NCBI GenBank assembly: GCA_000091205.1
Contig: AP006486.2
Source: Cyanidioschyzon merolae
Lineage: Eukaryota
Direction: 5' to 3' (one strand)
DNA: 64,000 nt
In this document: in pieces, positions 23,126 to 63,579 of the stretch
Layout of the letters: each line of letters opens with the position of its first letter
How positions within the stretch are numbered: the first letter of the stretch is position 1
Notes under the pieces: generated by a model
The model's input: only the letters and a program-made list of their open reading frames with translations
Databases searched by the model: none
What the model was told of the DNA's origin: nothing
Made by a program: the position numbers and the translations under genes

Positions 23126-23194
23126 AGCAACGTTTTTCTTTCGAAAGGCGTTCGCTAGCAGCCTTCGATGATGCGTTCTTCGGGAACAGCTGCG

Positions 23195-23880
23195 TTTTTT
23201 TTTCTGATGAAAAAATGGTTAGATTCACTATGGATCCCAGAATTCGGAATGGATAATGGCTTTCGGGAAAGCGTCCACGATGAAGCGCCTACCTTCAAGT
23301 TCTATCACGCATACTTCCTCTCGGATATACTGGTCGTTTCGTATATTCTATCGTGCGCCGAGCCTGCCGTGAACACCCGCCGTAGCGCTTATACCACTGA
23401 AGCAGATGCCACACGGAGACAGAACGGCTTTGCCATACCACTGAAGGCATCGACTCGAGGCGTGGTTCCTCCGACGTGGGGTCGGAGTACATAATATATC
23501 TGGGAGCCTGTAAGCTGCGCAGACAGACGCACTGCCTGTGGCAGCGCGGAGCGATCTACAAGGAGTCCACTGTGACCACGGAGACGCCCAGACGCAGCAT
23601 CCTGCTCCAAGTCCCCGAATGAAATGCGTTGCGGACGAGTTGTGCAGGTATCGCCACAAAACCTGCCATTGGAGGAAGCATGAAGCACTAGCTAGCCCCG
23701 AAGACTCGTCCGGCTCGCGGGACCTTCCGCCTAGAAGGTAAAGTTTCGAAGATGCGGAAACTTTCCCCCTTTTCCATGAGTCATATCAAGGTCGAAAGAA
23801 ACTGTTATCGAGTTGCTAGTCAGTTGTTAGTTTCTGTTCTTTCGTCTCTAGGAGAAAGCTCGCTGCTCACGGTCGGGCAC
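23195..23880 (-). mobile_element. SINE-like non-autonomous retroposon, copy A (about 0.68 kb) with A-rich tail
   Basis: Collinear (about 85% identity by eye) with 29325..29990 and, in reverse, 49770..50455. The tail on the element strand is 'catcagaaaaaaa' (plus-strand T-run at 23203-23210). Confidence 0.5.
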
Positions 23881-29183: not shown

Positions 29184-29324
29184 GTCACCCTGCAGCTGAA
29201 AGCACAGGCGAAACGGCGCTTTCCTGAACCGCTACCAGCCACGTAGATACAGCACTTTGAGCATTGAAAAAGTAAGGCTGCGGGCGCCTGCCGCAGTGCC
29301 GGTGCGCTGGCTCTGTTATCCCTT

Positions 29325-29990
29325 TTTTTCGATGACGAAACGTTTATATGGACCGTGGATCCCAGATTGCTGAATCCATACAGGCTTTCGGGAATGTTTC
29401 CATTATGCAGGGCAATACTCCCAAGTTCCGTCACGTATACTTCCTTTCGGATATACTGGTCGTGTTGTACATGCTATCGTTCACAGAGTACCCGCTGTGA
29501 GCGCTCGCCGTAGCGCCTTTACCGCTGGTGCGGATGAAGCGCGGAGACGGAACGGCGTTGGTATGCCCATAGACATGTAGGCTCGAGGCATGGTGCACCT
29601 GATACGGTGTCGGAGTACGTAGTAATTCTGGGAGCCTGCAAACTGCGTAGACAGACCTACTGCCTGCGGTACCGGGAGGCGATAAACTAGGAGTCCACCG
29701 CGACCGGGGTGATATCCAGATGCAGCTTAACTGCCCCTAGTCCTGGAATAAACTGCACTGCGGACGAGTTGCTCAGATCTCACTGAGGCACGAGGCACAG
29801 TGGGGAGCAAGAAGCGCAAGCGCGGCAAACTCGTCCGGCTCACGGGACCTTCCGCCTGGAAGGTAAACTAGCGATAATACGGAAACCTTTTCCCCTTTTA
29901 CCGTCTACGTTAGAGAGGGAAAGAAATCGCTATCTCGTTCCTAGTTCGTGGTTCGTCTCTGTTCTCTTTTCTATCCCACATCAATCTATG
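29325..29990 (-). mobile_element. SINE-like retroposon, copy B
   Basis: Homologous to copy A over its full length ('ggatcccagattgctgaatcc...', 'gtccggctcacgggaccttccgcctggaaggtaaac...'). A-rich tail on the element strand (plus-strand 'ccttttttt' at 29325-29333). Confidence 0.5.
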
Positions 29991-30290: not shown

Positions 30291-31657
30291 TGTCGTATGT
30301 CGGGGCTGTATACACGAGATCTGTTCATGACTGCAGATAAAGCGCGGTTTATGGCTCGCTATGCGATTACGTTCCCGTATCCGGAAGCGTTTGGCGAAAG
30401 CCCCGTTCGAACTTCGCTAACAGCGCAGGATGCCCATGACTTGTGTTTGCGGAGAACTCGTTCGTTCTGTCTGTCTCCGCAAGTCTCCCGGCAGATGCAT
30501 ACGAACATGGATTCTTGGCCGCTGCACCATATGGAATTTCCCGACGAATGCACCATCTGATGTAGAGCTCTTCTCGGATCGAGTTTCGCGAACGAGTCGC
30601 TCCACGACGTCCCAGACAGCTTTGTACGACTAGAAGAGTGTTGGAGCATCTTGCAGTCCAGAGAGATGTTCCCGTATCATGACCAAGCAACACGGCGCCC
30701 TCATGGAGCAAGTCGAAGTGCTCACCTCTAGCGCACGCTCTCCTGTGCGCCCCCTGGTACTTGCAACGCTCGTTCGCTCGAGTCCAGCGATGGATGCTGC
30801 TGTCTCACATGTACCTCACAAGCGAATCTCCGCTGCCTTGTCTGGGCGTCTCGAATGCGATGCTCGACGCTTTAGCGCCGAATCGTAGGTGCCAGTCGGG
30901 CACCGCCCGGTAATCCGCTCGGACTATGCGTTATGCGTCTCGTCAATCTAAACGAGGACCATTGCAATACGCTTGGAACTGCTGCACGGGTCAAGTGATG
31001 TGCCACGGTCAGCGCCGACCTGGGACTCGCTCCAAGCCACTTGTCCGTGTTGCATCGATCAGCGCTCATGCCGTGCACACGATGCTACCCCGAATTCCTA
31101 TTACACGCTTCATTTGGACGACCAGTGAGCATCCAAACAGCCGCTCACTTCAGGCTCTGGTGAATCCTCCGTACAAGGGGCGCTTGCACGACGATTTCTT
31201 TTCGCACTGGAAGAGCGGTCGGCCTCGTGACCCTGTTCGCTCGTTAGTCGACCAGTTGCTCAGGACCAGCACCCATCAGATGTCAACAAGACGTCACCTT
31301 CAGGGAATACCAAGCCCGTAGACCAACACATTCTGCAGGGAGTACCGAGCGCAGAGTATTTCTGATTAAAGCTTGCCTTACAAATGCCCAATGCATAGCT
31401 TCGTTGTATGAGGACACCAGCTTCTGCAAGGCGTGCTCCAGTCAGAAAGATTCTGCTTTGGGTACGCCATACACAAAAGCCCACTGCATAGCTTCATCCT
31501 ACAAGAAGGGCTGTCACGACGGCCTTGCGTCTGTTCTGGCAGCAGCGTCGGGTGCGCAACGTTGCGTCGTGGTGCGGTAGGGCCGCAAAGAACAGCAACG
31601 AAGGCTGTGCTTGGGGGGTTTTTTATCCCGGCAAAGAGCTCTTTTCGAGATTGGAAT

Positions 31658-33004
31658 ATGGCCTCTCCTCCAGTGACTGACTGGGCTGAGGATGAGGTGG
31701 AAGGGTTCGGAAGAAGCTATGAGGAAAGGCGAGGTCTATGGATGGGCGTTGGTGCGAAGTCACGTGGCGAGACCGTTGCTGGGCGTTCGGGCGTCGCTAC
31801 AGACGTTCATCTGGCACCGGAGCGCTCGTCCCAGTCTCATGGGGAGCACGCTTCTGTCCATGCCGCTGAAAGCACTGAGATCAAGCATAGCACTGTTCGT
31901 TCCACGCTTCCAGGATCTGCAAAAGTGGCAAGCGCACGTAAGGATCCCGGCAGCGCGCACCAGAGGGAGGGAAGAGCTGCGTCTTCCTGCCCACAGGAGG
32001 GCAGGAAGACGCGCTCGCCTGCACGGACGGGTATGCGGCAAGGTCTCGACGAAGCCTTTGGGCGTATATCCGTGCGCGCGGAATCACTGAATCCTCAACC
32101 CGCCGCAACAAAGAATGAAACAACAAACGGCGCACAGCAGGGAGCGCCTCCCGAGCCTGACGTCACGGAAGTGGATGCCTTGAATGCCCGCATCGTGAAG
32201 AATGCTCGAGACGAGGCCGAAGGGACCGAGCAGCTTCTGCGTGAAGACAGGGAGCGAGAGACGCGCTCGAGGCGTTTGTTTCCCACCGAGCCTCCCTACA
32301 GAGCGTACGTTGGTCACGTACCCGCTGGGGTCCAGGAGGATCAGATCCGACAACTGTTCCATGGTTGCCAAATCAGTCGTATCCGATTTCTGCGTCGAGC
32401 GCCTCTGGCACCGGAAAGCGGTAGCAAGGACCCAGGTGGAAACGCATCAGAGCTGGACTCGGGCACAAGCACGAAACACACAGTCGTCCGCGCTGCATTT
32501 GTGGATTTTGCAAACGCGGAATCCCTTTCCGATGCGCTGAAACGTCACGGCACCCTAATCGACGAATGTGCAGTTGTTGTGGACATTGCGCAATACGCCG
32601 GGAACCCAGCAACAGCGGATGCTTCTGGCTCAACGCGCACTGCACACAGAGGGCGGCATTCGTATCGAACACCCTCAGCAGCGCCTTCGGAACGTGTGGA
32701 CTCGCGGTTTGCAGGCCAGCACCGACGGGGAAACGCGCCCACCATACCTTTGAAAGGCGCAGCACTTGGGCATCATGTGAACGGCACTGGACGCACCGGA
32801 GCCAGCGCCCAAGGATCGCGGAGAGCTCGGGCCTCGCGTCAGGGATGGGTGCACGTAACAGACGGTCTCCGCCCGCAGATACTCAGAGAGCAGGACGGGA
32901 AGGCTTCTGCAGCACCTGACAAATCCAGTGGGTCCATATTGGCCCGGAACGACTTTGCAGTGCTGGCCTCGCTTGATTCGAGTTTGTCTGACGACGATGA
33001 ATGA
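31658..33004 (+). CDS. RRM-containing protein, eIF4B/eIF4H-like
   Basis: The ORF spans 31433..33004; the probable start is at 31658 ('MASPPVTDWAEDE', the W-[AS]-D-E N-terminal motif of eIF4B). RRM 'YRAYVGHVPAGVQEDQIRQLFHGCQISRIRFLRR...VRAAFVDFANAESLSDALKRHGTLIDECAVVVDIAQ' is collinear with the eIF4B/4H RRM (Y.AfvGNLP....e.i..fF.gl.IsaVRL.R....AfVeF...esl..AL). Arg/Asp/Glu-rich (DRERE) region downstream. Confidence 0.55.
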   Translation: MASPPVTDWAEDEVEGFGRSYEERRGLWMGVGAKSRGETVAGRSGVATDVHLAPERSSQSHGEHASVHAAESTEIKHSTVRSTLPGSAKVASARKDPGSAHQREGRAASSCPQEGRKTRSPARTGMRQGLDEAFGRISVRAESLNPQPAATKNETTNGAQQGAPPEPDVTEVDALNARIVKNARDEAEGTEQLLREDRERETRSRRLFPTEPPYRAYVGHVPAGVQEDQIRQLFHGCQISRIRFLRRAPLAPESGSKDPGGNASELDSGTSTKHTVVRAAFVDFANAESLSDALKRHGTLIDECAVVVDIAQYAGNPATADASGSTRTAHRGRHSYRTPSAAPSERVDSRFAGQHRRGNAPTIPLKGAALGHHVNGTGRTGASAQGSRRARASRQGWVHVTDGLRPQILREQDGKASAAPDKSSGSILARNDFAVLASLDSSLSDDDE

Positions 33005-33734
33005 AACAAACGACGCCGTACCTCGCTAGATTCTGTGCATGGCGGTGGACCGCAGCATGCTACTGGTGCCGCGCGGTGCTGGCGAACGCTCCGATGTCGT
33101 CGTTAGTCGTTGTCGTTGGAGCAGCAGCTGCGAGGCGCGCAGCGGAAGCAAAACCCGTGGATGCTTCTTGCCCATTTTACTGGATAAAGCAGGAATAGAA
33201 GATCATGCATCGGGCACCGCATGCCCCGAGTTTCTTGTTCGAGTCCCAAAGTCCGCCGGCACGCTGCGCATGTCCATTGTATTGCGGCACAAGTGAGCTT
33301 GCATCCTCATCCACGCCTTGAATCAAACAATGGTTATCATGTTGCAACGGGTTCACAACATGCGTATCACGTACACCACCAGTGTCGCAGATTCGAAAAG
33401 AGACGAACGGCAAGAGGCGTGCCCGCTTCCGCGACTCCAGTTGCGCACCTATACACTGCTGTATAGGAAATGCGGGAATTGTAAAGTATTCTATCCCAGC
33501 TGCTGGCTAGCGTCCTCTATCGATCGTGCCAATGTATCGATCTCAGTGTCTGTCCAGAGACCAGCCAGTTCAGCGGCATCCGCGCTATACCATCGTGCGA
33601 GACGCATCGACCGGGATGGATTCAAGCCCGGAGAGCGCACTGGATGCCTAAAAGAAATCATCGAGTAGACAAATTGAATCGAGGATAGCGGTCTTTGTTC
33701 TAACAAAATAAAATGGCGAGAGAACCCGACCTGT

Positions 33735-34545
33735 ACAGAGCAGTCTGCATCCGGGCCAGAAAAGGCATACGCATCCCAGCCTGCAGTGTCGTGCATTTCC
33801 GATAATCCGAATTACACATAGAGCAGTCTGCATCCCGACCAGAAAAGGCATACGCATCCCAGCCTGCAGTGTCGTGCATTTCCGATAATCCGAATTACAC
33901 ATAGAGCAGTCTGCATCCGGGCCAGAAAAGGCATACGCATCCCAGCCTGCAGTGTCGTGCATTTCCGATAATCCGAATTACACATAGAGCAGTCTGCATC
34001 CCGACCAGAAAAGGCATACGCATCCCAGCCTGCAGTGTCGTGCATTTCCGATAATCCGAATTACACATAGAGCAGTCTGCATCCGGGCCAGAAAAGGCAT
34101 ACGCATCCCAGCCTGCAGTGTCGTGCATTTCCGATAATCCGAATTACACATAGAGCAGTCTGCATCCCGACCAGAAAAGGCATACGCATCCCAGCCGGCA
34201 GTGTCGTGCATTTCCGATAATCCGAATTACACATAGAGCAGTCTGCATCCCGACCAGAAAAGGCATACGCATCCCAGCCTGCAGTGTCGTGCATTTCCGA
34301 TAATCCGAATTACACATAGAGCAGTCTGCATCCCGACCAGAAAAGGCATACGCATCCCAGCCTGCAGTGTCGTGCATTTCCGATAATCCGAATTACACAT
34401 AGAGCAGTCTGCATCCGGGCCAGAAAAAGCATACGCATCCCAGCCTGCAGTGTCGTGCTTTTCCGATAATCCGAATTACACATAGAGCAGTCTGCATCCG
34501 GGCCAGAAAAAGCATACACATCCCAGCCTGCAGTGTCGTGCATTT
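33735..34545. repeat. 83-bp tandem satellite, about 10 units, two alternating variants
   Basis: Unit 'cagtctgcatcc[g/c]g[g/a]ccagaaaaggcatacgcatcccagcctgcagtgtcgtgcatttccgataatccgaattacacatagag' repeats with an exact 83-bp period (ORF starts at 33812, 33895, 33978, 34061, 34144 all 83 bp apart). The array generates the chained 77-aa 'MHDTAGWDAYAFSG...' artefact ORFs. Confidence 0.9.
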
Positions 34546-34699
34546 GCAATGGAGTCACAGGGGCGCTGCCTATGATAGGGAGTGGGGCGCGTTCGTGGAG
34601 CATCCGCGAGGAAATGTTGAGCGCTTCTATTCGCTTTTTTATGGGTGCGCTTCTCAGGGCCCACCATATCGGACACAATCGTAGAGTGGTGAGGGCCTT

Positions 34700-35464
34700 T
34701 TGGAGTCGTCGTTGATGTCGACCTCTCCGATCCTTTTGAAACTGGTCATCCTGGGTGACTCTGGAGTAGGCAAGACTTCGTGTCTGGAGCGTTTCGTTAA
34801 TCGACGCTTCTCGCTGCAGTACAAGGCCACCATCGGAGCCGATTTTTTAACGAAAGAACTGGAACTTTTTGACGATAGCCCCTGCGACGAAGGCGTCACT
34901 GCTCCCAAAGAAAAAACAGGAACGTCGGAGCCTGGAGGCGCTGGTGTAGCGACTTGCGAGTTCAGCACCGAAGCGTGCGGAAGAAGACGGCAAGTGTGTC
35001 TGCAAATCTGGGATACGGCCGGACAAGAACGATACCAGTCACTTGGTGCTGCATTCTATCGTGGTGCAGACGGTTGCGCCCTCATGTTCGACTTTAGCGA
35101 GGCCAGTTCGCTCGCGAGTGTAACGTCGTGGCGCGAAGAGTTTCTGTTGCTAGCGGCACCACCAGCTGCGTCTACGTTTCCATTTGTGCTTCTGGGAAAC
35201 AAGGTCGACCTTGTGCGCTCCCAAACATCGGTATACGAAGCCACTCGCGAGCATGCGCTTTCGTGGTGTGCCGCTCATCACGCGATACCATTTTTTGAGA
35301 CCAGCGCTCTCGAGAATACGGGCATTGACCGAGCCATGACGACGCTGGCGCGAACAGCGCTTCTCTATCACGAACAGGTGCACAAAGCAGCCGGCTATGA
35401 ACCAGATGCCATTCTCGATTCCCTGCAAAACAACCGGGCGGCAGCGAATAACTGCGCGTGTTAG
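34700..35464 (+). CDS. Rab7-type small GTPase (Ypt7-like) with C-terminal CXC prenylation motif
   Basis: Collinear with Rab7 across all G-boxes: '[15 protein letters not shown]', '[14 protein letters not shown]', '[30 protein letters not shown]', 'LLGNKVDL', 'FFETSALEN'. Ends '...NNCAC' + TAG. Carries a roughly 37-aa insertion between the switch I region and 'WDTAGQ'. Confidence 0.85.
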   Translation: [254 protein letters not shown]

Positions 35465-46600: not shown

Positions 46601-47479
46601 CCAGCCTTGCAGTTCTCCACGCTAGAGAGGGCCCGTGCCTTACTTGGCAACCAAGTCGAGCGCGAAGCACGCTTGGCTACCTCCATTCCTGTCCTCGAGA
46701 AACGCAACCAGAGTTGCACTGCGGCGTTCGGAAGAATCCGAATGACGGCCGCCTCCAGATTCGTCACCCGCCACAATGGCATCGCTGGGGGCGCTGCATC
46801 GCCTCCTTGAGCGTCACCCGGCGGCTTGCACGCTCGGACCTGGAAGAAATCGCTTCAAGCGTTACGGTCTGCTGGTTGGTGCTCGGCTGTTCTGTGGTCC
46901 AGAGAATACCGCAAATCCCAGGTCGTTGAAGGCAATTACTGGCCCGGTCACGTGTCAGTGGGAACCGGTTCGATGTCTGCGCGCTTTGCTGCAGGCGATC
47001 TTTACACCAGGCGACGCCGAAAACATCGTCCTCGGTAAGCACTATCAAGCAGACTCTCGCTGCCTCATGAAACTCGCTGTCCAAGAGGCATGCAACAATC
47101 AGAAGCGTATAATTGTGTGTCCCCAAGCAGAAGCAGGCAGACTGACAATTACCAGCCACCTCGTTTCGCGCTTTGCTGGGGATGTGCTCGCAACAAAGCA
47201 CTGCTACCCCAGCGCCGCCGGGCTCCGGAAGCTCCACAGAGTTGTCTCCAATCGACATGGTGAATGTTCACCACTGTGCAACGGAGGACACGATAAGCGC
47301 AGCCTTGCGCCAATTCATCGTTGGTGTCTTGATGGAAGATGGCGTGTGAAATGCTGGTGGCATATCGAGAATGAGATCCAGGCCGCATTGCCCAGCGGTA
47401 TCCGCACGCACTGCCTAGAGAAAAGGCTGCACAAAGAATCGCGTTCACGCGCCTTATTCTTGGCCGGATGGAGAGCATG

Positions 47480-49769: not shown

Positions 49770-50455
49770 GTTGAGTGTGAAATTGCACCTAGGGTGCTGA
49801 CAAGCGACAAGCGCGGCATCGACGACTGCGAGAAAGAACTGAAACGAACCACTGACTAGCAGCTCGATAACAGTTTCTTTCGACCTTGATAGCAATCGAT
49901 GAAATCGGGAAAAGTTTCCGAATCTTCGAAAGTTTATCTTCCAGACGGAAGGTCCAGCGGTCCGGACGAGTCTGCGGGGCTAGTGCTTCATGCTTCCTCC
50001 AGTGCAAGGTGCTATGGCGAGACCTGCGTAGCTCGTCTGCAACACAAGCAATCGGGAAGTAGGGAAAGGAAGCCGCGCCTGGGCGTCGCCCTTGTCGCAG
50101 TGGACTCCTGGTAGATCGGTTCGCCCTGGCGCGGGCTCCCAGAACGATGATGTACTCCGACCCCGTGTCGGATGAGCCCTGCCTCGAGACGACGCCCTCA
50201 GTGGTCTTGCAAAGCCGCTACGTCTCAGTGCAGCATCTGCTTCAGCAGTATATCAGCGCTACGGAAGGTGCTCGCGGCAGGTACTCGGCGCAGGATAGAA
50301 CATACGAAACGACCAGTATATCCGAGACCAAGTATGCGTTATGGAACTTGGAGGTAGATGCCTTATGGCGGACGATTCCCCGGGAGCCATTATCGATTTC
50401 GAGTTCTGGGATCCATGGTCAATTGTCCACGGATTGTCATCGAAAAAAGAAATCG
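49770..50455 (+). mobile_element. SINE-like retroposon, copy C (plus orientation)
   Basis: The reverse complement of 49790-49900 matches the 5' region of copies A and B ('atcaaggtcgaaagaaactgttatcgag.tgctagtcagt'). The 3' end is '...gagttctgggatccatggtcaattgtccacggattgtcatcgaaaaaagaaa'. Confidence 0.5.
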
Positions 50456-50591
50456 ACCGCTGTGATCGAAGCGCTCGGGCCGAGGCGAGGCGCGATCTCG
50501 AATGCGGCGCGATCCAAGCGCTATGAGTATATATATAAATTTAGACGGTTGCATCGCCACCGGCATGGCGCGGTGTGCGCCAAGCAGAGAT

Positions 50592-50704
50592 CCAGTGATA
50601 GCTCACTCGCTTCCCATGCGAGGCTACGAGTTGGTAGAGCATTCGGCTGTAGTGGTACTTTGCATCTACCGAAGGGTCCCTGGTTCGAGTCCGGGTCACT
50701 GGAA
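50592..50704 (+). tRNA. tRNA-Tyr(GUA) gene with a canonical 15-nt intron and an additional 23-24-nt insertion in the D-loop; possibly a pseudogene
   Basis: Hand-folded: acceptor 'ccagtga'/'tcactgg' (7 of 7 pairs); 'ta'; D-stem 'gctc'..'gagc' with D-loop '...agttggta' preceded by an extra 'ctcgcttcccatgcgaggctacg'; anticodon stem 'ttcgg'/'ccgaa'; loop 'ctGTAg' (U33, anticodon GUA, purine 37); intron 'tggtactttgcatct' 1 nt 3' of the anticodon; variable loop 'gggtc'; T-arm 'cctgg ttcgagt ccggg'; discriminator A. A pol III terminator 'ttttttt' follows at 50707-50713. The architecture is near-identical to known tRNA-Tyr genes (…TAGCTCAGTTGGTAGAGC…CTGTAG[intron]…GGTTCGA.TCC…). Confidence 0.55.
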
Positions 50705-51389
50705 GATTTTTTTCGAAACTTGAGAATCTCGGGATCTGCTCGAAACCACTGCCTAGGTAAGTCATTTTCTGAATCGGGACTCTGCAGCAACTAGCCGATC
50801 CCCGAAAAATTTACAATTCTTGTTCGCAGCCTGCGCAAGGATACTTGCGTCCCGGCAGACGCTTGTCCCTTCCGCAAGCTCCAACGAGAGTGCCTGGAGG
50901 AATCATGTTACAGTCCGTCAAACATTCTAGGATCACCGGGTGCCGGGCATTTGGATAGTGCAAGGCCGCTGGATGCGTCTTTGCGAATTCTGTACACTCA
51001 CAGAATGGCTTCGCGTTTTGTTGATTCGTATCATATCCAGGCGCACAGTACGACACATGTGAGGAACGTGGACACAAGGCCGGAACCTGTGGAAAGAACG
51101 AATTTCCCGCGACTCCTGGGAGAATCTGCGCGGCATAAGAACAGCTTTGATTTCGCCGCACCACCAACCAGATGAGGACACACGGAGCAGTTGGCCGGCA
51201 GGTTTGTCCCGATCGCCGGATCTTCTTACAATGTAAACTTGGAGACTCGACAAAAAACCTTGCCCCCATTATGCGCTGCAATATATTAGAACAGGAGCCG
51301 TTCGCTAATTGCTCAACCGCGGTCTGTATTCGTTTATCCTGAATAACGATTCATTGGTTCCGGCACACACCTCGAAAGGAGGCACCGCC

Positions 51390-54145
51390 GCCTCCAAACA
51401 CCTCTCGAAAGTTCAACGACGTCACCGTTGTACAGTAGTGGCGAGTGACCCGCCCTAGACAAGAAGTCTCCGACTGCTATGCAGACGCCTCCGCGTCTTT
51501 CTCGACCGGCCAACTACTACTGCATCCAACTTTTTCTCATATACTTCGACTTTGAGAGGCTGTCCAACTATGTTCTCTCTTGTCGACTCTGGAGGTGTTT
51601 CCTCCAGCACTGCACATCGCCTTGTATTGATAGCGGCGATAAAGTACCGGCCCACAAACTCCATCCGTTTCGTGCCCCCGTTGGTTGTACTTACTAGCGT
51701 GAGTAGTCCACGAACTTTCGCTCTCCTTTCCACTTCCTCCTCCGTCAGCGGTCCGTACTTTGCTATTTCCTCAGGGCTCCTCTGGCAATTTTCCATTTCG
51801 ACCCTCTGAAGTGTGCACCCTAGCTCGTGTTGTGTGTAGGAGGTTCGGAACAGATCTATCGGTTTTGCAACGAAAAGCCTTGCGCACTCCTTGAACACCC
51901 TCGTCGTTGGAGCTGGCTTAGTGCCTTTCTTGGGCGCCCAGCGCCCTGCTCTGTATGCTGCTACTAGCCTCTGATTTTCACCCTCGTTCAAGGCGCTCAA
52001 CTGATTGAAAAAATTCGCGAACGCTCGCTACTTACCACAATACAGATTCATTCGCAAACGAGTCCATCGGGGCTTTATATACTCCTCCCACACCGCATCC
52101 CAATGCACAATGCGAACTTCCATGAATATTCCGAAAAGATTCAAAGTCCGCTCCACGGCTCGTCACCTTGCTCATAGCTTCCAGGTGCTTCTTCAGTCCA
52201 GCATTCATATCTCGATTTTCTTCCACTCATTCAATATACCGGATTCTCGATAGTATGTCGCTCTCGAGAACCTCAAAAGGCGCATATCGTTCTGACGAAA
52301 GTAACCGTCAGTAACATCTTCCGCGCGCTTGGGTACAGCGATGGTTACGATATTTGTGTTTCCGGTGTCCCCGCCAACGAAAAAGTCGATATCTTGCACT
52401 TTCTGCGTCACAGGATCCACCTCCTTCTTCTCTTCATGCTTCGCCGCGCCAACCATAACGTGGTTATCCTGCACTTTCTGTGTGGCAGGATCCGCCTACC
52501 TCTCATCTTCATCCTTCACCGCGCCAACGACAAGGTCGTTATCCTGCACGTTCTGTGTCGCAGGTTCCGCCCCCTTCTCATCTTGATCCTTCACCGCGTC
52601 AACAACAAGTTCGTTATTCTCCACCTCCTGCGTTGCAGGATCAGACTCCCCCTTTTCTTCATCCTTCGTGACGGGCGCAGCCGAGGGAGGGACTGGCCGA
52701 TCTTTCTTCAACCACCGATAGTGTACAGACATGGCTACTCCATCGGTTTCGATCATCCCTGTGAATACCTTTTATTTGCTGACTTTCACACGTTTGAAAT
52801 CGAAGATATTCTTCCACAAAGGCTCCCGGATTTCACCGGTGAGGTCCTCCCTGTTAACATTGAACTCCGGACTGATCTCCCTCATGATGCCGTAAAGGAC
52901 GCCTGAATCGATAGTCACAAAATGTGACTTGATGTTGCTCATTAGAACCACGTTGAAGCGCTTCCCCATTAGGACAGCCTTCCGTCTCTCCCATTCTTCA
53001 TTTCTTCCTCAAACAGCTTCATCTCCGCCTTCCGCTCGAGCTCCCGGTCCAGAAACACAAAATACCGCATTATGAGATAATAGTATCTTTCCTTATCTTT
53101 TTTCGACTCTGATATCATATCTCTTGGATTCGCCAACCACAGTACCGCACGTTGCTCTTGTCTAGCCGCACGGATCGCAGAAGCTTCGTTCGCGCTCTCG
53201 TTTACGCCTTCTCTCTGACAAATTCGACCTCATCTTCACGCTTGCGATCTTTCGTGATGGCCTTGATAGTCGCCCGTTTTCCATTGCGAGATAGGCCCGG
53301 GTAGAGTGCAACCACGGCACGTAACATAAAACGTTCGAGGTTCACTGTCAAATGGTCCTTCAGATTCGTGGGGTACTTCATGGGCCCATATGAGTGAACA
53401 TCCCGGTAACCCCAGTATCGAGTACCACTGAAGCTGTAAAAGGGATGTTTTTCGTGGAGGGCATGCACCCGCTCATTTTCCTTCCGAGCTTCCTCTGTGC
53501 CAAGCATCAGCTGACTAACAAAGGTCTTGTCGAAAAAATCTTTCGGAATCTCTACCGTTTCCATGTGGGTCACGTCGCGATCCATCTCCCTCGGCAAATG
53601 CATCAGTCCTGACAACGCGTTGACAATACTCTTGGAGTAAGAGGCCACATGTTTTTCGATAGCGTCTCGCAACTTACCCTGTAGGGATCCTTGATATGTC
53701 CAAGAAGGAAGGTTTTCACCACCTTCTCGTTGTAAAGTCGACTTTCTTGCCGCCTTCGATGTAGGGCCTCCTGCTTTCGGTTCTTCAGCTCTTCCTTTTC
53801 TTCAGGACTCGGCACTGCTTTTTGTTCTTTTCTGGCAGCCGGCGACCTTGGACCTCCAGGATCGTGGGCTTGCTTTTTCATAAATTTCCTTTTCTTGTTT
53901 TTTAAAGATAACGCTCTTTGAACGCTTCTGTTAGATACTGCGCAAAACACTTGACTAGACTTGTTTGAAGCTTGAAACGAAAATGAACAGAAACACTGTA
54001 CTTTGCTAGGACCTGAACGGAAATTTAACTTTTTTCCAGCTGAACAACACGCTAGAGATCATAATCACGTTTCCCTTCAACAGCGGCACGCGCGTCGTGT
54101 CTCATGTCTGTCTGATCTCCGAGGTGCACTCACCGAGCGCGATGC
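51390..54145 (-). mobile_element. TnpB/Fanzor-like element, copy 3 (diverged, nuclease-dead)
   Basis: Minus-strand ORFs 53603..53950 (NLS-like 'KNKKRKFMKKQAHDPGGP...'), 53202..53672, 52496..52756, 52205..52474 (RuvC-I '[17 protein letters not shown]') and 51455..52000 (zinc finger 'TSYTQHELGCTLQRVEMENCQ'). It reads through the position that is TAG in copies 1 and 2, but the RuvC-III motif has degenerated to 'GRYFIAAINT' (Asp->Tyr, tac at 51644-51646). 5' and 3' terminal blocks are homologous to copy 1. Confidence 0.65.
51455..53950 (-). pseudogene. Fanzor/TnpB-like nuclease gene, frameshifted and catalytically degenerate
   Basis: At least two frame changes relative to copy 1 (for example 'DPYRVSCETLSKNMW' versus copy 1 'DPYREKLRDAIENSV') and the RuvC-III D->Y substitution. 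Extra internal ATQ.V.DN.[LF]VV[DG]A repeats. Confidence 0.6.
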
Positions 54146-54837
54146 CTGCACCGCGCGAGACGCCTCAGCGATCGATGAAGGACACGTGTTCGACAACCCG
54201 CCTTGGCACATGCTTGTACGCATCGCACTGCAGCTGAAATAAACTATCGTAGATCGGAAATTGACGTAGAACGATCTCCTGCTATAGACTCTGTCGCTGG
54301 TGCCGACGCTACTGCCCATCGCAGTACCGCCCCGACATACAAGGGGCTGTTGGGGCCTGACACAAAACCCCTCGACGCTTCTATCAAAAGCGTAGCGTTC
54401 TCTGCAGCTTCCGCTTGTGTGGATGAGTTGTGCATCAATCTTCTCGTTAGGAATTTCATTTGTTTTATTGATCGTAACCAAACAAGGTAAGGTAGTATTC
54501 CTGGACTCGTATATGCGTCTGTTCGTGATGCTTGTTATGCATGCCGCACGGACGCTGCAATGAGGAAATGACCTGAATTGTGCTTCGATCTTGCGTCATA
54601 CGCTGGTACTGATGGCAGTTCAAGCCATTTGCATGCTATCGTCTTTGTCCAAGTTATGGTGCTTGCTACTCTCCCGGATCCGGTGATCTTGGTAGAGGCA
54701 TCGCATACATAGAGTGTCTATACTTAGCATTCCATTTGACCGACGCATCCGCCAAAAGCACATACTGTATTCTGATCTACTCTATAAGATTAGTTTCAAG
54801 AGCCTAACCCGAACATCGAGCCCGGAAGCGACAAAGC

Positions 54838-59323: not shown

Positions 59324-62080
59324 ATGTTTCGAGCTCGCTCTCTGGCGCGTGGCCTGGGAGTTGCTGGTTGTCTATTGTTGGCGGCGACGTTTTCCGTGTC
59401 GGTTGTAGCTGCGTTGTCGCCTGTGAGTACGGTTAGCTGGACCTGGATAGGTGGAGAGACGGGCACAGGTAAGTATGGAAAGTATGGAACGTTGAACGAG
59501 ACGTCTCCAGAGAGTGTCCCTGGTGGACGTCAAAATCCAGCAGCCTGGGTCGGAAGTTCGAGCTTGGTATACTTGTTTGGCGGGTTTGGGAATGGAAACA
59601 CAACAGGGGGCTACCTCAACGATTTTTGGAGCTTCAACCTCACATCACTCGAGTGGATGTGGATAGGCGGCTCTTCAGACGTCAACAAACAAGGAGTATA
59701 TGGCACACTCGGCATAAGCAGCCCAGCCAATATACCTGGCAGTCGTTATGCAAGCGCATATTGGCAGGCGGACGAGCAGCACTTCTGGTTGTTTGGTGGT
59801 TTCGGCTCTGATGTGAACGGTAATGAGGGCGAACTGAACGATATGTGGCGGTACGATACTGAAACGGGAATCTGGACGTGGTTCAGTGGGAATGATACTA
59901 TTAACGCCAATCCAGTCTATGGACCGAAGGATATCTACAGTCAAATTTACAACCCCGGAGGCCGATATAGCGCGGCATTCTGGCTAGGCACGGACGGTCT
60001 GTTTTGGATTTTTGGTGGTGTGGGTATTGCGGGGGATTTTCTGTCAGATCTTTGGTCATTCAACCCTGTGACATTCGTATGGGCATACAGAGGCGGATCA
60101 CAACTTGTTAACCAGCCCGGTAACTATAGCGCACCTGGCGTGGCGAGCAACTCAAATGCCCCAGGTGCGCGCGGCGCCTCGTATACATGGACAGATTTTG
60201 AAGGAAATCTCTGGTTGTTCGGTGGCGCTGGCTACGGAAACAGCACAGCACGAGGACCAGGGGACTTGAATGATCTCTGGGTCTACAACATAAGCCAATC
60301 CGTATGGATTTTTATCACAGGGAATACCACTATTAGTAATCCAGGATCGTATGGAACTCTCGGTGCTTTCTCCCCAACCAGTTACCCAGGTGCAAGAGAC
60401 TCAGGCGTGAGTTTTGTGGATTCTTTTGGTAATCTACAGCTGTTTGGCGGTGAGGGATTCGCTAATACAAGCGAATCCTTTGGCAATTTGAACGATCTTT
60501 GGGTATTTGATATCACGCTTGGTCAGTGGGCGTGGATCAATGGCAGCCAAAGTGCGGATGCTCTTTCAGTATATGGAGTTTTGAACGAGTCCAGCTCGAG
60601 TGTTGTACCTGGCGGTCGCTATGGACCAGCTTTCTGGAATACAAGTGGGACCGATCCGATCCTATTTGGCGGATTTGGATACTCAAACACTAGCAGACCT
60701 GGCTATCTCAATGATGTTTTCGCACTGCGTGAAACGTTCTTTACGCCTACCTCTACGCCTACGCCAACATCAACGCCAACTGCTACATCGACCCCAACAT
60801 TCTCGGCAACCGCTTCATCTACGGCTACATCTACGATAACAGCAACCGTAACCTCGACGTTCACACTGACGCCAACGCCTACATCTACTCCGGTGTGCAC
60901 CAATGAGATCTGCGGTTCCCCGGGACAGTACACGAACCAGGACGCTTGCGAGCAAGTCGGATGCTGCTTCAACGCCCAGACGAACGCGTGCACCCTGAAG
61001 AGCGTCGCAGCGGCGTGCAGCGCTGTTCCAGTGACACAGCGCGTCCCCTGCGGCTGGAGCTACATCTATCCCGACGAGTGCACTGCGATACCGGGATGCT
61101 GCTGGCAGCCCACAGCGAACGGCATCCTCGCGCCCTGGTGCTACTACGACATCGACCATGCACCCCAGGCTTCTGTAGCGCTACAGGAGGTGCAGGCACC
61201 GGTTCCCGTCTGCCCGTCACCGGGAGCGCAGCGGCAGCCGTGCGGCAACGCGGGTATCAACCAGTTTACCTGCTATGAACAGGGCTGCTGCTACGACTCG
61301 CAGGCGCAGAACCAGTGGGTGCAGAACGGCAAGCAGCAGAGTGACTTTACGTCGAACCCGTACTGCTTCCAGCCCGAGAAGACGTGCGCGGTGGGTGAGT
61401 TTGAGCGCCAGCCGTGCACGAACGCGGTGAATCAGAACCAGCAGCTGACCAACAATAACATCAACAATAACCAGTTTGTGCGTCTGCTGAACACGCTGCT
61501 GTACGGAGAGCAGCACGGGACGCAGCGCACGAGCTACGCGCCGCAGCAGTGTCTGGAGGCTGGTTGCTGCCTGGGGCTCGGCAACGAGTGCTTCCAGCCG
61601 GTAACCGAGTACGTGTGCCAGACCTACGGGTATGTGTCGAACTCGCTGAGCGGCACGACCGGCAACGTATCGAACTCGAGCTATATTCCGTGTGGCCCGG
61701 AGTGCTGCAACGCCGAGACGCAGAACTGCACGTACATCCCGTTCAGCAACAACAATAACCAGCAGCAGCAGCAGCTGCAACTGCAGCAACAGCAGCAGCA
61801 ACAACAGGTGCTGCTGCCGTCGTTCTGTGTGTGCAAGGACCCTACAAAGCAGTGCGGGACGTACCTGATCCCTTCGGATAACCTTGTGAACAAGATGCGT
61901 TGCTGCCGCGCTGACGAGGAGTGCATCAACAACCAGTGTGTCGTGATTAGTTCAACACCGACTCCGAGTCCCGTGGCTGCGACAGCGACACCCTCTGCGA
62001 CGGTGTCTGCGACAGCTTCTGCGGCGGTGTCTGCGAGTGCGTCAACATCGGTTTCGGGTTCAGCTTCAGTTTCTGCTTGA
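59324..62080 (+). CDS. Secreted mucin-like protein: signal peptide + Kelch-type beta-propeller + Thr/Pro linker + multiple trefoil(P-type)-like Cys modules + Ser/Thr/Ala-rich C-terminus
   Basis: N-terminal 'MFRARSLARGLGVAGCLLLAATFSVSVVA' (signal-peptide-like). Six to seven repeats of 'W.W[IF].G....N..YG' and 'GGR...A.W......[LW][LI]FGG' (Kelch/galactose-oxidase-type blades). 'TPTSTPTPTSTPTATSTPT...' linker at about 60740-60900. Modules such as 'CSAVPVTQRVPCGWSYIYPDECTAIPGCCWQP' and 'CPSPGAQRQPCGNAGINQFTCYEQGCCYD' follow the trefoil pattern C-x-R-x-C-G...C...GCC[WFY]. A poly-Q/N tract and a C-terminal 'SATVSATASAAVSASASTSVSGSASVSA' tract are also present. Confidence 0.8.
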   Translation: MFRARSLARGLGVAGCLLLAATFSVSVVAALSPVSTVSWTWIGGETGTGKYGKYGTLNETSPESVPGGRQNPAAWVGSSSLVYLFGGFGNGNTTGGYLNDFWSFNLTSLEWMWIGGSSDVNKQGVYGTLGISSPANIPGSRYASAYWQADEQHFWLFGGFGSDVNGNEGELNDMWRYDTETGIWTWFSGNDTINANPVYGPKDIYSQIYNPGGRYSAAFWLGTDGLFWIFGGVGIAGDFLSDLWSFNPVTFVWAYRGGSQLVNQPGNYSAPGVASNSNAPGARGASYTWTDFEGNLWLFGGAGYGNSTARGPGDLNDLWVYNISQSVWIFITGNTTISNPGSYGTLGAFSPTSYPGARDSGVSFVDSFGNLQLFGGEGFANTSESFGNLNDLWVFDITLGQWAWINGSQSADALSVYGVLNESSSSVVPGGRYGPAFWNTSGTDPILFGGFGYSNTSRPGYLNDVFALRETFFTPTSTPTPTSTPTATSTPTFSATASSTATSTITATVTSTFTLTPTPTSTPVCTNEICGSPGQYTNQDACEQVGCCFNAQTNACTLKSVAAACSAVPVTQRVPCGWSYIYPDECTAIPGCCWQPTANGILAPWCYYDIDHAPQASVALQEVQAPVPVCPSPGAQRQPCGNAGINQFTCYEQGCCYDSQAQNQWVQNGKQQSDFTSNPYCFQPEKTCAVGEFERQPCTNAVNQNQQLTNNNINNNQFVRLLNTLLYGEQHGTQRTSYAPQQCLEAGCCLGLGNECFQPVTEYVCQTYGYVSNSLSGTTGNVSNSSYIPCGPECCNAETQNCTYIPFSNNNNQQQQQLQLQQQQQQQQVLLPSFCVCKDPTKQCGTYLIPSDNLVNKMRCCRADEECINNQCVVISSTPTPSPVAATATPSATVSATASAAVSASASTSVSGSASVSA

Positions 62081-63579
62081 GTATGCGCGTTGACGTTTAC
62101 GTCGTTTAAGGTCTATATCATGTCTATGCTGATCCTCTGTTATGACAATGTTGCAGACATGTACACAAGATCGGTGAATACGAATGAATGAACGAACGAA
62201 CGAACGAATGAATGCGGCTACAGATGTGCGCGGAGAGCACTCTGAAATCCTGCCGAGGGGGCGTGATTCAGAGGCGATACACATGGAACGACGGGGCAGG
62301 AATTCTCTCTCGGAACCTAAAGGAATGATTACCTATGAGCACGAGCGCGCCTATGACTATCGCTTTTTCGGCCACGTCGCTGAGTTGCAAAACTTTGCCT
62401 TCGTTGCCCCGGAAACCCGGTGCACAGGTTGCGACTAGCGAGTTTTGTGCGACGACGCAAACGGATGTAAGCATTGTAGGATTGATGTACTAGCTCGCAT
62501 TCTGTCCACGACTAGTAGTTCCAGAGCAAGTGCGGTTCGATCCGTGCAACTGAACATTTCACCAGAATACGGTATCCCTAGGGTAAGCGTACATATCAAT
62601 GAATCCATTTCATCTGCAGCAGCGTCGCTGAGTAAGCAAGTCGCAGAGTTACCAGCATCAGAGCGCATGTACAGCTCTAGCATCGAAAGCGCATATTGCC
62701 TGCTCCAAATGCGGAAGGGTCGTCTCAGAAGTTCTCAGACTCTTGCCTGCTGTCTGTTGGACAAAACGTGTACAAAAACGACTGTAGCGCACTGTTGGGA
62801 TCCAGTCCCCGATTTGGGCTTGTTGTCGAGAAAATGACTCCAAGCAGAGGGCGCAAGTAAGCTATAAGACCATGGACATGTCGCAAGCGTGCTAAATCGT
62901 AGAGGCAAGATAGAGCGCACAGCGAGATCCAGAGGGCGAATCTAGCCAAAGTGAGAGTTACCGCAGCACGGCGAGCAGAGTTGAAGGCAACCTGAGCGCT
63001 TTCTTTCTGTAACCGTACCTATCGATTATGTGCAAGGTGGTTGCGAGATGCCCTATGATTGAATCTACTGCTGATGAATGGAGGCTTGTCCTCCGGCCAA
63101 GGGAGCAACCGAGATGCAGAATATGATGTATCGACTAAAGAAGGTCTCAAGCTTCACGATTGACACAGTCGCGGATTCTTTTATCATATGGACGCCATCG
63201 CAGCAATATCTGAACGGGGCGGCCACCGACTAATAGTGTAAAGGATTGAGGTGCTTTTCGCAGACATGATCTTAATAAGCGACGGCAACCTGGATGCTGA
63301 CCTGAACTAGCGAGACCCTGCAGTGCCGACCAGGATCGCTTTGAGTGTAGACGGAAGGCAACAATAGCCGGCGCGATCGGGGCTCTTGGTTGTTGACGGT
63401 GTTTTCGTTGGTTGACCCGGGTCGCATGTGTCTCAAGAGACGGCGTGCGTTGTGCTCTGGCACGCTTGCGAGCACCGGTGCGACGGATCTAAGATGCAAC
63501 CCTAGGCAGAAAGGGTACCAGAGGTGTCATGATGATAGCCGAATGATAGTACCAGCAGTGGACGGGCGGAACAGCAAAT

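What the first reader, a model, noticed from the sequence alone, without database searches (positions are those of the whole stretch)
50592..50713. tRNA-Tyr(GUA) gene with a second, non-canonical insertion in the D-loop
The locus folds into a near-textbook tRNA-Tyr. It has the 37/38 intron that eukaryotic tRNA-Tyr genes almost universally carry (here 15 nt) and a downstream T7 terminator. However, the D-loop contains an extra 23-24 nt ('ctcgcttcccatgcgaggctacg') between 'GCTCA' and 'GTTGGTAGAGC'. This insert can itself form a 5-bp hairpin (ctcgc/gcgag). Non-canonical tRNA intron positions processed through bulge-helix-bulge motifs are known in archaea and a few unusual eukaryotic lineages. The alternative is a pseudogene or tRNA-derived SINE head. 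The SINE-like copy C ends only about 135 bp upstream.
Basis: seen in the sequence. Interest (0 to 1): 0.6.

Follow-up and report, generated by a model that had tools for sequence, protein, structure and literature searches.

The report
Red-alga tyrosine tRNA gene, two introns
This is the nuclear tyrosine tRNA gene of the hot-spring red alga Cyanidioschyzon merolae, split by a normal anticodon-loop intron and a second intron at the start of the D-loop; this kind of multiply split tRNA gene was described for this same genome in 2013, so it is real but not new.

Summary
Window 50592-50703 encodes a tRNA-Tyr(GUA) in three exons, split by a 24-nt insert at the D-stem/D-loop border (50605-50628) and a 15-nt intron at 37/38 (50653-50667). 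Standard finders miss it. With both inserts removed, ARAGORN calls a perfect 73-nt tRNA-Tyr.

The D-loop insert forms a bulge-helix-bulge-like motif. A 4-bp helix (U8-C11 with the intron's GCUA) is flanked by two 3-nt bulges, with a 5-bp intron hairpin. The standard cleavage rule gives exactly the canonical D-loop AGUUGGUA. Shuffled introns reproduce this geometry at about 5e-5.

Six window ORFs are exact matches to C. merolae strain 10D proteins. Soma et al. 2013 reported that 27 of its 43 nuclear tRNA genes carry 42 such introns. Fourteen of these are in D-loops and nine genes have two introns. [quoted passage not shown]

The pseudogene and SINE-head alternatives are not supported. Verdict: already known kind in this same genome, low interest. 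I could not view that paper's figures to confirm that Tyr(GTA) itself is listed.

The parts
50528..50540 (+). TATA-like upstream element (TATATATATAAAT), the presumed TFIIIC-independent Pol III promoter. It lies 52-64 nt upstream of tRNA position 1.
   Evidence: Read directly. Soma 2013/2014 report a TATA-like sequence within about 50 bp upstream of most C. merolae tRNA genes. It is unchanged in the three environmental relatives. Its function is inferred.
50541..50591 (+). Spacer and 5' leader between the TATA element and tRNA position 1. The transcription start has not been mapped.
   Evidence: Relative L005 carries 8 substitutions within 50549-50589 and none in the gene (Fisher p=1.5e-5). 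This fits a weakly constrained leader. The inference rests on a single lineage.
50592..50604 (+). Exon 1: tRNA positions 1-13 (acceptor 5' strand CCAGTGA, U8, A9, D-stem 5' strand GCTC).
   Evidence: ARAGORN cloverleaf of the spliced product.
50605..50628 (+). Intron 1 (24 nt, ACTCGCTTCCCATGCGAGGCTACG) at position 13/14, equivalent by sequence to 14/15. It interrupts the A-box region.

BHB-like motif of HBh' type:
- Central helix H: 50599-50602 (TAGC) pairs with 50623-50626 (GCTA).
- 5' bulge: 50603-50605 (TC|A).
- Helix h': 50606-50610 pairs with 50618-50622.
- Loop: 50611-50617.
- 3' bulge: 50627-50629 (CG|A).
   Evidence: The motif appears in the unconstrained MFE fold of the pre-tRNA. It is the MFE of the 31-nt motif model, at -10.0 kcal/mol. 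It is the best BHB geometry in the D region. Shuffle frequency is 4.5e-5.
50629..50652 (+). Exon 2: positions 14-37 (D-loop AGTTGGTA, D-stem 3' strand GAGC, A26, anticodon stem TTCGG, loop C32 U33 G34 U35 A36 G37).
50653..50667 (+). Intron 2 (15 nt, TGGTACTTTGCATCT) at the canonical 37/38 position. Its splice motif is only relaxed or weak.
   Evidence: ARAGORN -i calls it once intron 1 is deleted. Model energies are -0.3 to -2.4 kcal/mol. H has 3 bp plus a C32-U mismatch.
50668..50703 (+). Exon 3: positions 38-73 (A38, anticodon stem CCGAA, variable loop GGGTC, T arm CCTGG-TTCGAGT-CCGGG, acceptor 3' strand TCACTGG, discriminator A73). CCA is not encoded.
50704..50713 (+). 3' trailer AGA followed by T7 (50707-50713), the Pol III termination signal.
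   Evidence: Read directly. T-stretches follow most C. merolae tRNA genes.

Best explanation
This is the nuclear tRNA-Tyr(GUA) gene of Cyanidioschyzon merolae 10D, on a 513,455-bp record that I take to be chromosome 4. It is one of that alga's known BHB-disrupted tRNA genes and has two introns.

Proposed mechanism:
1. RNA polymerase III starts from the upstream TATA-like element. It does not use the internal A/B boxes, because intron 1 splits the A box. It stops at the T7 run. (Inferred from the literature on this genome.)
2. In the precursor, U8-A9-G10-C11 pairs with GCUA near the 3' end of intron 1, forming the 4-bp central helix of a bulge-helix-bulge-like motif. A 5-bp intron hairpin stacks on it. 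The two 3-nt bulges are UC|A and CG|A. (Shown by folding.)
3. The tRNA-splicing endonuclease (cmSen2/cmSen34 catalytic subunits) cuts after the second nucleotide of each bulge. Ligation joins C13 to A14 and gives the D-loop AGUUGGUA. (The cut sites follow from the established BHB rule. The enzyme is inferred.)
4. The D-stem can form only after this step, because its 5' strand was held in helix H. The folded mature domain then allows removal of the weakly structured 15-nt intron at 37/38. This order is inferred from the free energies, -10.0 versus about -0.3 to -2.4 kcal/mol. It matches the order found experimentally for C. merolae tRNA-Phe and tRNA-Ile.
5. RNase P, tRNase Z and the CCA-adding enzyme finish the 73-nt tRNA. 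(General knowledge.)
For: Organism: six ORFs of the window are exact full-length matches to C. merolae 10D proteins BAM79229-BAM79241, on one 513,455-bp record.

Gene:
- There is no tRNA call on the intact sequence.
- tRNA-Tyr(gta) is called after the insert is deleted in silico.
- The spliced 73-mer gives a perfect cloverleaf with C1-G72, A73, U8, A14, G18G19, U33, G53TTC and A58.

BHB motif at intron 1:
- It is present in the unconstrained MFE of the precursor.
- It is the MFE of the motif model, at -10.0 kcal/mol. This is close to the -10.9 to -11.2 reported for ectopic introns of tRNA-Phe and tRNA-Ile.
- The geometry occurs in 4.5e-5 of shuffles with the 5-bp h', and in 1.7e-3 with an h' of at least 2 bp.
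- The predicted cuts give an 8-nt canonical D-loop.

Class features reported by Soma 2013:
- 27 of 43 genes are intronic, with 42 introns of 11-69 bp.
- 14 introns lie in D-loops and 9 genes have two introns.
- A TATA-like sequence lies upstream and a T-stretch downstream.
- The non-canonical intron is removed before the 37/38 intron.
All of these match this locus.

Other support:
- Only Gly(CCC) is stated to be duplicated, so Tyr(GUA) should be single-copy and essential. This is an inference.
- In another red alga, Chondrus crispus, tRNA-Tyr has a D-loop intron plus a 37/38 intron, and splicing was verified by RT-PCR.
- Three syntenic environmental contigs, 96.5-98.8% identical over 1.7-8.2 kb, carry the gene with both introns unchanged.
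Against: - No expression or splicing data for this particular gene were available to me.
- The figures and supplement of Soma 2013 that list each gene are not held. I therefore could not confirm that Tyr(GTA) with these intron positions is in the catalogue.
- The motif lacks the outer helix h (0 bp), so it is a relaxed HBh' type rather than a strict hBHBh'.
- Intron 2 forms only a weak motif.
- The conservation evidence is weak. The relatives are very close, and the zero-substitution block also extends downstream of the gene.
- The whole-precursor fold is not unusually stable (z = -1.57).
Confidence: 0.93

Rival explanations
1. Pseudogene: a former tRNA-Tyr gene inactivated by a random 24-nt insertion in the D-loop, not expressed or not processed.
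For: Standard finders reject the locus. The Rfam tRNA model scores only 15.8 bits against a gathering score of 29. The A box is interrupted.
Against: - Every other tRNA feature is intact, and the spliced product is a perfect tRNA-Tyr.
- The insert has BHB geometry that places the cuts exactly where they are needed, with shuffle frequency 4.5e-5.
- The lineage-typical TATA element and T7 run are present.
- C. merolae has only 43 tRNA genes and only Gly(CCC) is stated to be duplicated, so a dead Tyr gene would leave Tyr codons undecoded.
- The locus is unchanged in three natural relatives, while the adjacent leader has changed in one of them.
Confidence: 0.03
2. tRNA-derived SINE head or part of the nearby dispersed repeat ('copy C').
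For: A dispersed repeat of about 620-640 bp ends 144-169 bp upstream.
Against: - Self-comparison shows that 50449-51426, which includes the tRNA, is unique in the window.
- The two other repeat copies (23223-23843 and 29324-29965) have no tRNA-like sequence next to them.
- ARAGORN and Rfam find no tRNA in those copies.
- The gene ends in a Pol III terminator rather than continuing into a repeat body.
Confidence: 0.01
3. The 24-nt insert is not removed and persists in the mature tRNA as an enlarged D-loop or extra hairpin.
For: The insert can fold as a self-contained 5-bp hairpin. With the D-stem enforced, the precursor still folds at -36.6 kcal/mol.
Against: - An insert between C13 and A14 would disrupt the conserved U8-A14 and G18/G19-T-loop tertiary contacts. 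This is general tRNA knowledge.
- The free MFE prefers the BHB conformer, at -41.5 kcal/mol.
- In this organism, D-arm inserts of this kind were shown by RT-PCR to be spliced out of tRNA-Phe and tRNA-Ile. The same was shown for tRNA-Tyr in Chondrus crispus.
Confidence: 0.02

Closest known systems
BHB-mediated disrupted (ectopic or multiple-intron) nuclear tRNA genes of Cyanidioschyzon merolae 10D (Soma et al. 2013, Sci Rep 3:2321, PMC3728597)
   Same: - Same genome.
- Intron length falls within the reported 11-69 bp.
- One D-arm intron plus one 37/38 intron.
- A BHB-like motif at the ectopic intron, with a free energy like the published examples.
- A weak motif at 37/38.
- Upstream TATA-like element and downstream T-stretch.
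- A box interrupted.
   Different: Nothing detectable. The only gap is that I could not see the figures that list Tyr(GTA) and its intron positions, so identity with a catalogued entry is inferred. It is not read from the paper.
Chondrus crispus nuclear tRNA-Tyr genes with two introns (PlantRNA 2.0, Cognat et al. 2022; bioRxiv 10.1101/2021.12.21.473619)
   Same: A red-algal tRNA-Tyr with a D-loop intron plus the canonical anticodon-loop intron. Splicing was verified experimentally there.
   Different: In C. crispus the D-loop introns always lie between positions 20 and 21. Here the intron lies at 13/14 (or 14/15), on the other side of the D-loop. Whether the two are homologous is unknown.
Archaeal non-canonical tRNA introns with a strict hBHBh' motif (Crenarchaeota, Nanoarchaeota; Marck & Grosjean 2003, Sugahara et al. 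2008)
   Same: A 4-bp central helix flanked by two 3-nt bulges. The cuts fall after the second bulge nucleotide. The introns occur outside 37/38, and several can occur per gene.
   Different: This is a eukaryotic nuclear gene with a T-run terminator and no encoded CCA. The outer helix h is absent, so the motif is relaxed (HBh'). The endonuclease is eukaryote-like (Sen2/Sen34/Sen54 homologues). Soma 2013 found no sequence similarity to archaeal disrupted tRNAs.
Ordinary eukaryotic tRNA-Tyr genes with a single 37/38 intron
   Same: C1-G72, A73, GUA anticodon, and a short intron 3' of position 37 that can pair with the anticodon (GUA/UAC). Many such genes came up in the metagenome scan.
   Different: These genes have no second intron, and they normally rely on intact internal A and B boxes.

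Membership tests
C. merolae BHB-disrupted nuclear tRNA genes (Soma 2013) | [quoted passage not shown] | tested here: met
   Six window ORFs are exact matches to C. merolae 10D proteins BAM79229-79241 on a 513,455-bp record.
C. merolae BHB-disrupted nuclear tRNA genes (Soma 2013) | Removing the intervening sequence(s) restores a canonical cloverleaf with a sensible anticodon | tested here: met
   ARAGORN calls tRNA-Tyr(gta) after the deletions. The spliced 73-mer gives a perfect cloverleaf.
C. merolae BHB-disrupted nuclear tRNA genes (Soma 2013) | BHB or BHB-like motif (hBHBh', HBh' or hBH) at the exon-intron junctions of the ectopic intron | tested here: met
   H is 4 bp, both bulges are 3 nt, h' is 5 bp and h is 0 bp, which makes it HBh'. 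It is the MFE of the model at -10.0 kcal/mol, with shuffle frequency 4.5e-5.
C. merolae BHB-disrupted nuclear tRNA genes (Soma 2013) | BHB-like motif at the 37/38 intron | tested here: inconclusive
   H has only 3 of 4 bp and h' is two G-U pairs. Energies are -0.3 to -2.4 kcal/mol. The paper accepts 'no H' motifs at 37/38, for example Phe at +1.15 kcal/mol.
C. merolae BHB-disrupted nuclear tRNA genes (Soma 2013) | Upstream TATA-like sequence and downstream T-stretch, with no signal between the exons | tested here: met
   TATATATATAAAT lies at 50528-50540 and T7 at 50707-50713. No run of four or more T's lies inside 50592-50703.
C. merolae BHB-disrupted nuclear tRNA genes (Soma 2013) | Precursor is expressed and spliced in vivo | not testable with these tools
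   No RNA data were available. The paper tested Asn, Phe, Ile and Gly, not Tyr.
C. merolae BHB-disrupted nuclear tRNA genes (Soma 2013) | Listed in the published catalogue (Figs 1-2, Suppl. Fig. S1) | not testable with these tools
   Figures are not held and no supplement is held. The text says the anticodon repertoire is sufficient, which requires a Tyr gene.
Strict archaeal hBHBh' intron | Outer helices h and h' of at least 2 bp on both sides of the two bulges | tested here: not met
   h is 0 bp. The strand 5' of H is the acceptor stem, and the 3' exon after the bulge does not pair with it.
Eukaryotic/archaeal-type tRNA-Tyr | C1-G72 pair, A73 discriminator, G34-U35-A36 anticodon, short variable loop | tested here: met
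   Read from the spliced sequence. That these are the identity elements is from general knowledge.
tRNA-derived SINE / dispersed repeat | Multiple dispersed copies that share the tRNA-like head and a common body | tested here: not met
   The tRNA region is single-copy in the window, and the repeat copies lack it. The whole genome was not searched.

The most novel reading that the evidence does not exclude
The D-arm intron of this tRNA-Tyr may be more than a neutral relic and may act as an obligatory folding or processing gate. Its central BHB helix uses U8-C11 and so sequesters the 5' strand of the D-stem. The 3' part of intron 2 can pair with the 3' strand of the D-arm. The mature domain therefore cannot form until intron 1 is cut out. 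This would enforce the order of splicing and possibly of intron-dependent modifications such as pseudouridine 35. In addition, its position (13/14) differs from the 20/21 D-loop intron of Chondrus crispus tRNA-Tyr. That would point to independent gains of a second tRNA-Tyr intron within red algae.
Probability: 0.1. Interest if true: 0.35.

Novelty: already known. Interest (0 to 1): 0.15.

Why it matters
Ectopic and multiple tRNA introns in a eukaryotic nucleus are unusual. They show that a eukaryotic splicing endonuclease can recognise BHB motifs away from position 37/38. They also show that Pol III can work without intact A/B boxes. However, this was established for this very genome in 2013, and for a red-algal tRNA-Tyr in 2022. 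The value of the present result is mainly practical. It is a worked example of a real, probably essential gene that ARAGORN missed under its default and intron-aware settings and that scored below Rfam's tRNA gathering threshold. It also shows that the first-stage reader can detect such genes from raw sequence.

Tried and rejected
- ARAGORN with default settings and Rfam at gathering thresholds found nothing in the window.
- An Rfam E-value scan gave only a partial sub-threshold tRNA hit (15.8 bits).
- ARAGORN -i on the window gave a spurious tRNA-Ser with a 2,666-nt intron that borrows this gene's 3' half.
- At a relaxed threshold, ARAGORN made four poor calls: 28270-28360, 46857-46987, 50631-50703 and 62461-62555. 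All have mismatched stems, and I rejected them.
- T-loop motif matches at 1058 and 40819 are not tRNAs. The flanks at 1058 do not pair, and 40819 lies inside the phosphorylase ORF.
- I tried to find the orthologous locus in Cyanidiococcus yangmingshanensis through the neighbouring kelch-repeat gene. Synteny upstream of that gene is broken, and L001 has no tRNA-Tyr. No deeper comparative or covariation test was therefore possible.
- An exact look-up of the kelch ORF found nothing, probably because the annotated start differs. Six other ORFs then matched exactly.
- The supplement of Soma 2013 is not held. Text searches for 'Tyr' in that paper gave no hits.
- The other papers I searched for 'tRNATyr' or 'merolae' do not mention the C. 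merolae Tyr gene explicitly.
- I considered conservation among three environmental relatives as evidence for constraint on the introns. The evidence is weak, because divergence is only 1-3.5% and the invariant block extends beyond the gene.

Full report
**Observation**

- The 5' part is a 7-nt acceptor strand CCAGTGA, then U8 A9, then the D-stem strand GCTC.
- Extra sequence follows, and then AGTTGGTA-GAGC.
- Next come the anticodon stem TTCGG and the loop CTGTAG.
- A 15-nt insert follows, then A38 and CCGAA.
- Next come a 5-nt variable loop and the T arm CCTGG-TTCGAGT-CCGGG.
- The 3' end is the acceptor strand TCACTGG, discriminator A (50703), and then AGA plus seven T's (50707-50713).

Standard tools do not see the gene:
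- ARAGORN in default mode finds no tRNA in the 64-kb window.
- Rfam at gathering thresholds finds nothing.
- A permissive Rfam scan gives only a partial tRNA alignment of 15.8 bits, against a gathering score of 29.
- Intron-aware ARAGORN on the intact locus finds nothing.

Deleting 22-25 nt at the D-loop insert makes ARAGORN call tRNA-Tyr(gta) with a 15-nt intron, in 26 of the 28 deletion variants tried. The 22-nt deletions at offsets -3 and -2 are called tRNA-Ala(tgc) instead. With both inserts removed, the 73-nt product gives a perfect cloverleaf. It has C1-G72, A73, U8, A14, G18G19, U33, G53-T-T-C and A58.

- The D-arm insert is 24 nt. An A lies at each border, so 13/14 and 14/15 are equivalent by sequence.
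- The neighbouring repeat ends 144-169 bp upstream, not about 135 bp.

**Source organism**

The window is 53.6% G+C and has long uninterrupted ORFs. One ORF has its best match, at 68% identity, in the cyanidialean red alga Cyanidiococcus.

Exact-sequence look-up of six other ORFs returned Cyanidioschyzon merolae strain 10D proteins BAM79229, 79230, 79233, 79234, 79237 and 79241. All lie on one 513,455-bp record. The window is therefore C. merolae 10D nuclear DNA.

**Anatomy of the D-arm insert**

The unconstrained minimum-energy fold of the precursor keeps the acceptor stem and T arm. It pairs U8-A9-G10-C11 with GCUA near the 3' end of the insert. UCA is left as a 3-nt bulge, and the CUCGC/GCGAG hairpin stacks next to it. 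This is a bulge-helix-bulge-like motif:
- Central helix H, 4 bp: 50599-50602 pairs with 50623-50626.
- 5' bulge: UC|A (50603-50605).
- Helix h', 5 bp: 50606-50610 pairs with 50618-50622.
- 3' bulge: CG|A (50627-50629).

The established rule is that the splicing endonuclease cuts after the second nucleotide of each bulge. This is general knowledge of BHB processing, and it is consistent with the anticodon-intron pair geometry at 37/38. Under that rule the intron is 50605-50628. Ligation joins C13 to A14 and gives the canonical 8-nt D-loop AGUUGGUA.

The supporting numbers are these:
- A scan of all possible BHB geometries in the precursor shows this one has the longest h' in the D region.
- Among 200,000 shuffles of the 24-nt intron, H forms in the required register in 1.4%.
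- H plus an h' of at least 2 bp forms in 0.17%.
- H plus a 5-bp h' forms in 0.0045%.
- The 31-nt motif model has -10.0 kcal/mol, which is its own MFE.

The outer helix h is absent. The motif is therefore the relaxed HBh' type, not a strict archaeal hBHBh'.

The 37/38 intron forms only a weak motif. It has three of the four H pairs, a C32-U mismatch, and energies of -0.3 to -2.4 kcal/mol.

**What is known**

Soma et al. 2013 (PMC3728597) searched this same genome with SPLITS/SPLITSX. They report the following:
- 27 of the 43 nuclear tRNA genes are intronic, with 42 introns of 11-69 bp.
- 17 introns lie at 37/38, 14 in the D-loop and 5 in the D-stem.
- Nine genes have two introns.
- The introns form hBHBh', HBh', hBH or 'no H' motifs.
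- No homologues of the A/B-box-binding TFIIIC subunits were found.
- A TATA-like sequence lies upstream of most tRNA genes, and a T-stretch lies downstream.
- RT-PCR on tRNA-Phe and tRNA-Ile shows that the ectopic introns (-10.9 to -11.2 kcal/mol) are removed before the 37/38 intron (+1.15 and -3.5 kcal/mol).

The present locus matches on every point that I could test:
- TATATATATAAAT lies at 50528-50540, 52-64 nt upstream of position 1.
- T7 lies 3 nt after the discriminator.
- The A-box region is split by intron 1.
- The ectopic intron has -10.0 kcal/mol, and the canonical intron has a weak motif.

The legend of their Fig. 1 says only tRNA-Gly(CCC) is encoded by two genes. I therefore infer that this is the single tRNA-Tyr gene and that it is essential.

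PlantRNA 2.0 reports that in another red alga, Chondrus crispus, tRNA-Tyr genes carry a D-loop intron (20/21) plus the canonical intron. [quoted passage not shown]

I could not view the figures or the supplement that list the C. merolae Tyr gene itself. None of the other papers I searched mentions it in the text.

**Related sequences**

A pattern scan of metagenome contigs looked for tRNA-Tyr genes with 0-30 extra bases in the D-loop and 0-30 in the anticodon loop. It returned 49 loci.
- Three of them (L005, L032, L045) carry exactly this gene with both introns.
- These three are syntenic with the window at 96.5%, 97.6% and 98.8% identity over 8.2, 6.7 and 1.7 kb.
- None has a substitution in the 112-nt gene, the TATA element or the T-run.
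- L005 has 8 substitutions in the 41 nt between the TATA element and the tRNA. Fisher p is 1.5e-5 against the gene and 0.005 against the introns alone.

This shows that the split structure is stable in natural relatives. It is weak evidence for selection on the introns, because divergence is low and the invariant block runs on downstream of the gene.

The remaining hits are ordinary tRNA-Tyr genes with no intron or one canonical intron. No uninterrupted copy of this tRNA appeared.

An attempt to reach the orthologous locus in Cyanidiococcus through a neighbouring gene failed, because synteny is broken there.

**Rival explanations**

- Pseudogene. The intact cloverleaf, the exact BHB register, the promoter and terminator, the minimal tRNA gene set of this genome and the stability in relatives all argue against it.
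- SINE head. The dispersed repeat (49832-50448, with copies at 23223-23843 and 29324-29965) does not include the tRNA, and its other copies have no tRNA beside them.
- Retention of the insert in the mature tRNA. This would break conserved tertiary contacts, and it contradicts the RT-PCR results for analogous genes.

**Mechanism**

1. Pol III transcribes the gene from the TATA element to the T-run. (Inferred.)
2. The intron-1 BHB forms. It holds the 5' strand of the D-stem. (Shown by folding.)
3. The endonuclease cuts at 50604|50605 and 50628|50629. (The positions follow from the BHB rule. The enzyme is inferred.)
4. After ligation the D-arm folds.
5. The 37/38 intron is then removed. (The order is inferred from the energies and from published analogues.)
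6. The ends are processed and CCA is added.

**Verdict**

This is a real, functional tRNA-Tyr(GUA) gene with two introns. It belongs to a class already described for this exact genome, so novelty is 'already known' and interest is low.

Noticed in passing
window 23223-23843 (+), 29324-29965 (+), 49832-50448 (-): Three dispersed copies of an element of about 620-640 bp, 66-77% identical, with patchy blocks of strong conservation. I saw no long ORF in copy C and there is no Rfam hit at gathering level. They show no tRNA-like features. Their nature is unknown.
   Followed up: partly
window 16803-19394, 20614-23146 and 51427-54146: A segment of about 2.6 kb is present three times. Two copies form a 97%-identical inverted pair, and the third is about 80% identical and lies just downstream of the tRNA-Tyr gene. 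It contains internal 75-bp tandem repeats (52369-52681). ORF 17609-18628 (-) has no Pfam match.
   Followed up: partly
window 33654-34617: A tandem array of an 83-bp unit, extending about 964 bp, with most copies 97-100% identical. It lies between the ORFs 31433-33004 and 34700-35464.
   Followed up: no
window 27642-29183 (-): This ORF is the C. merolae homologue of TFIIIB subunit B'' (Bdp1). It has a Myb_DNA-bind_7 domain and is an exact match to BAM79234. It is a component of the TATA-dependent Pol III initiation factor presumed to drive the tRNA gene 21 kb away. The proximity is probably a coincidence.
   Followed up: no
L010 1243-1306 (-) and L038 541-604 (+), marine metagenome contigs: A eukaryote-type tRNA-Tyr without an anticodon-loop intron has a 16-nt D-loop, ACATTTCATAGTGGTA. 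Many otherwise identical marine hits have AGTTGGTA instead. This could be a very short D-loop insertion or intron in an unidentified marine organism.
   Followed up: no
window 50631-50641 with 50661-50672: In the predicted MFE of the precursor, and of the intermediate that lacks intron 1, the 3' part of intron 2 plus positions 38-42 pairs with the D-loop and the D-stem 3' strand (UUGGUAGAGCA with UGC-AUCUACCGA). Both strands of the D-stem could therefore be held by intron sequences before splicing. I did not test this against chance.
   Followed up: no
window 59324-62080 (+): A 918-aa kelch/beta-propeller protein with a trefoil (P-type) domain. It is 68% identical to a Cyanidiococcus protein. 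The other close matches are mostly bacterial or metagenomic 'N-acetylneuraminic acid mutarotase'-like proteins at 35-40% identity over half its length. The exact ORF is not on record, so the annotated start probably differs.
   Followed up: no
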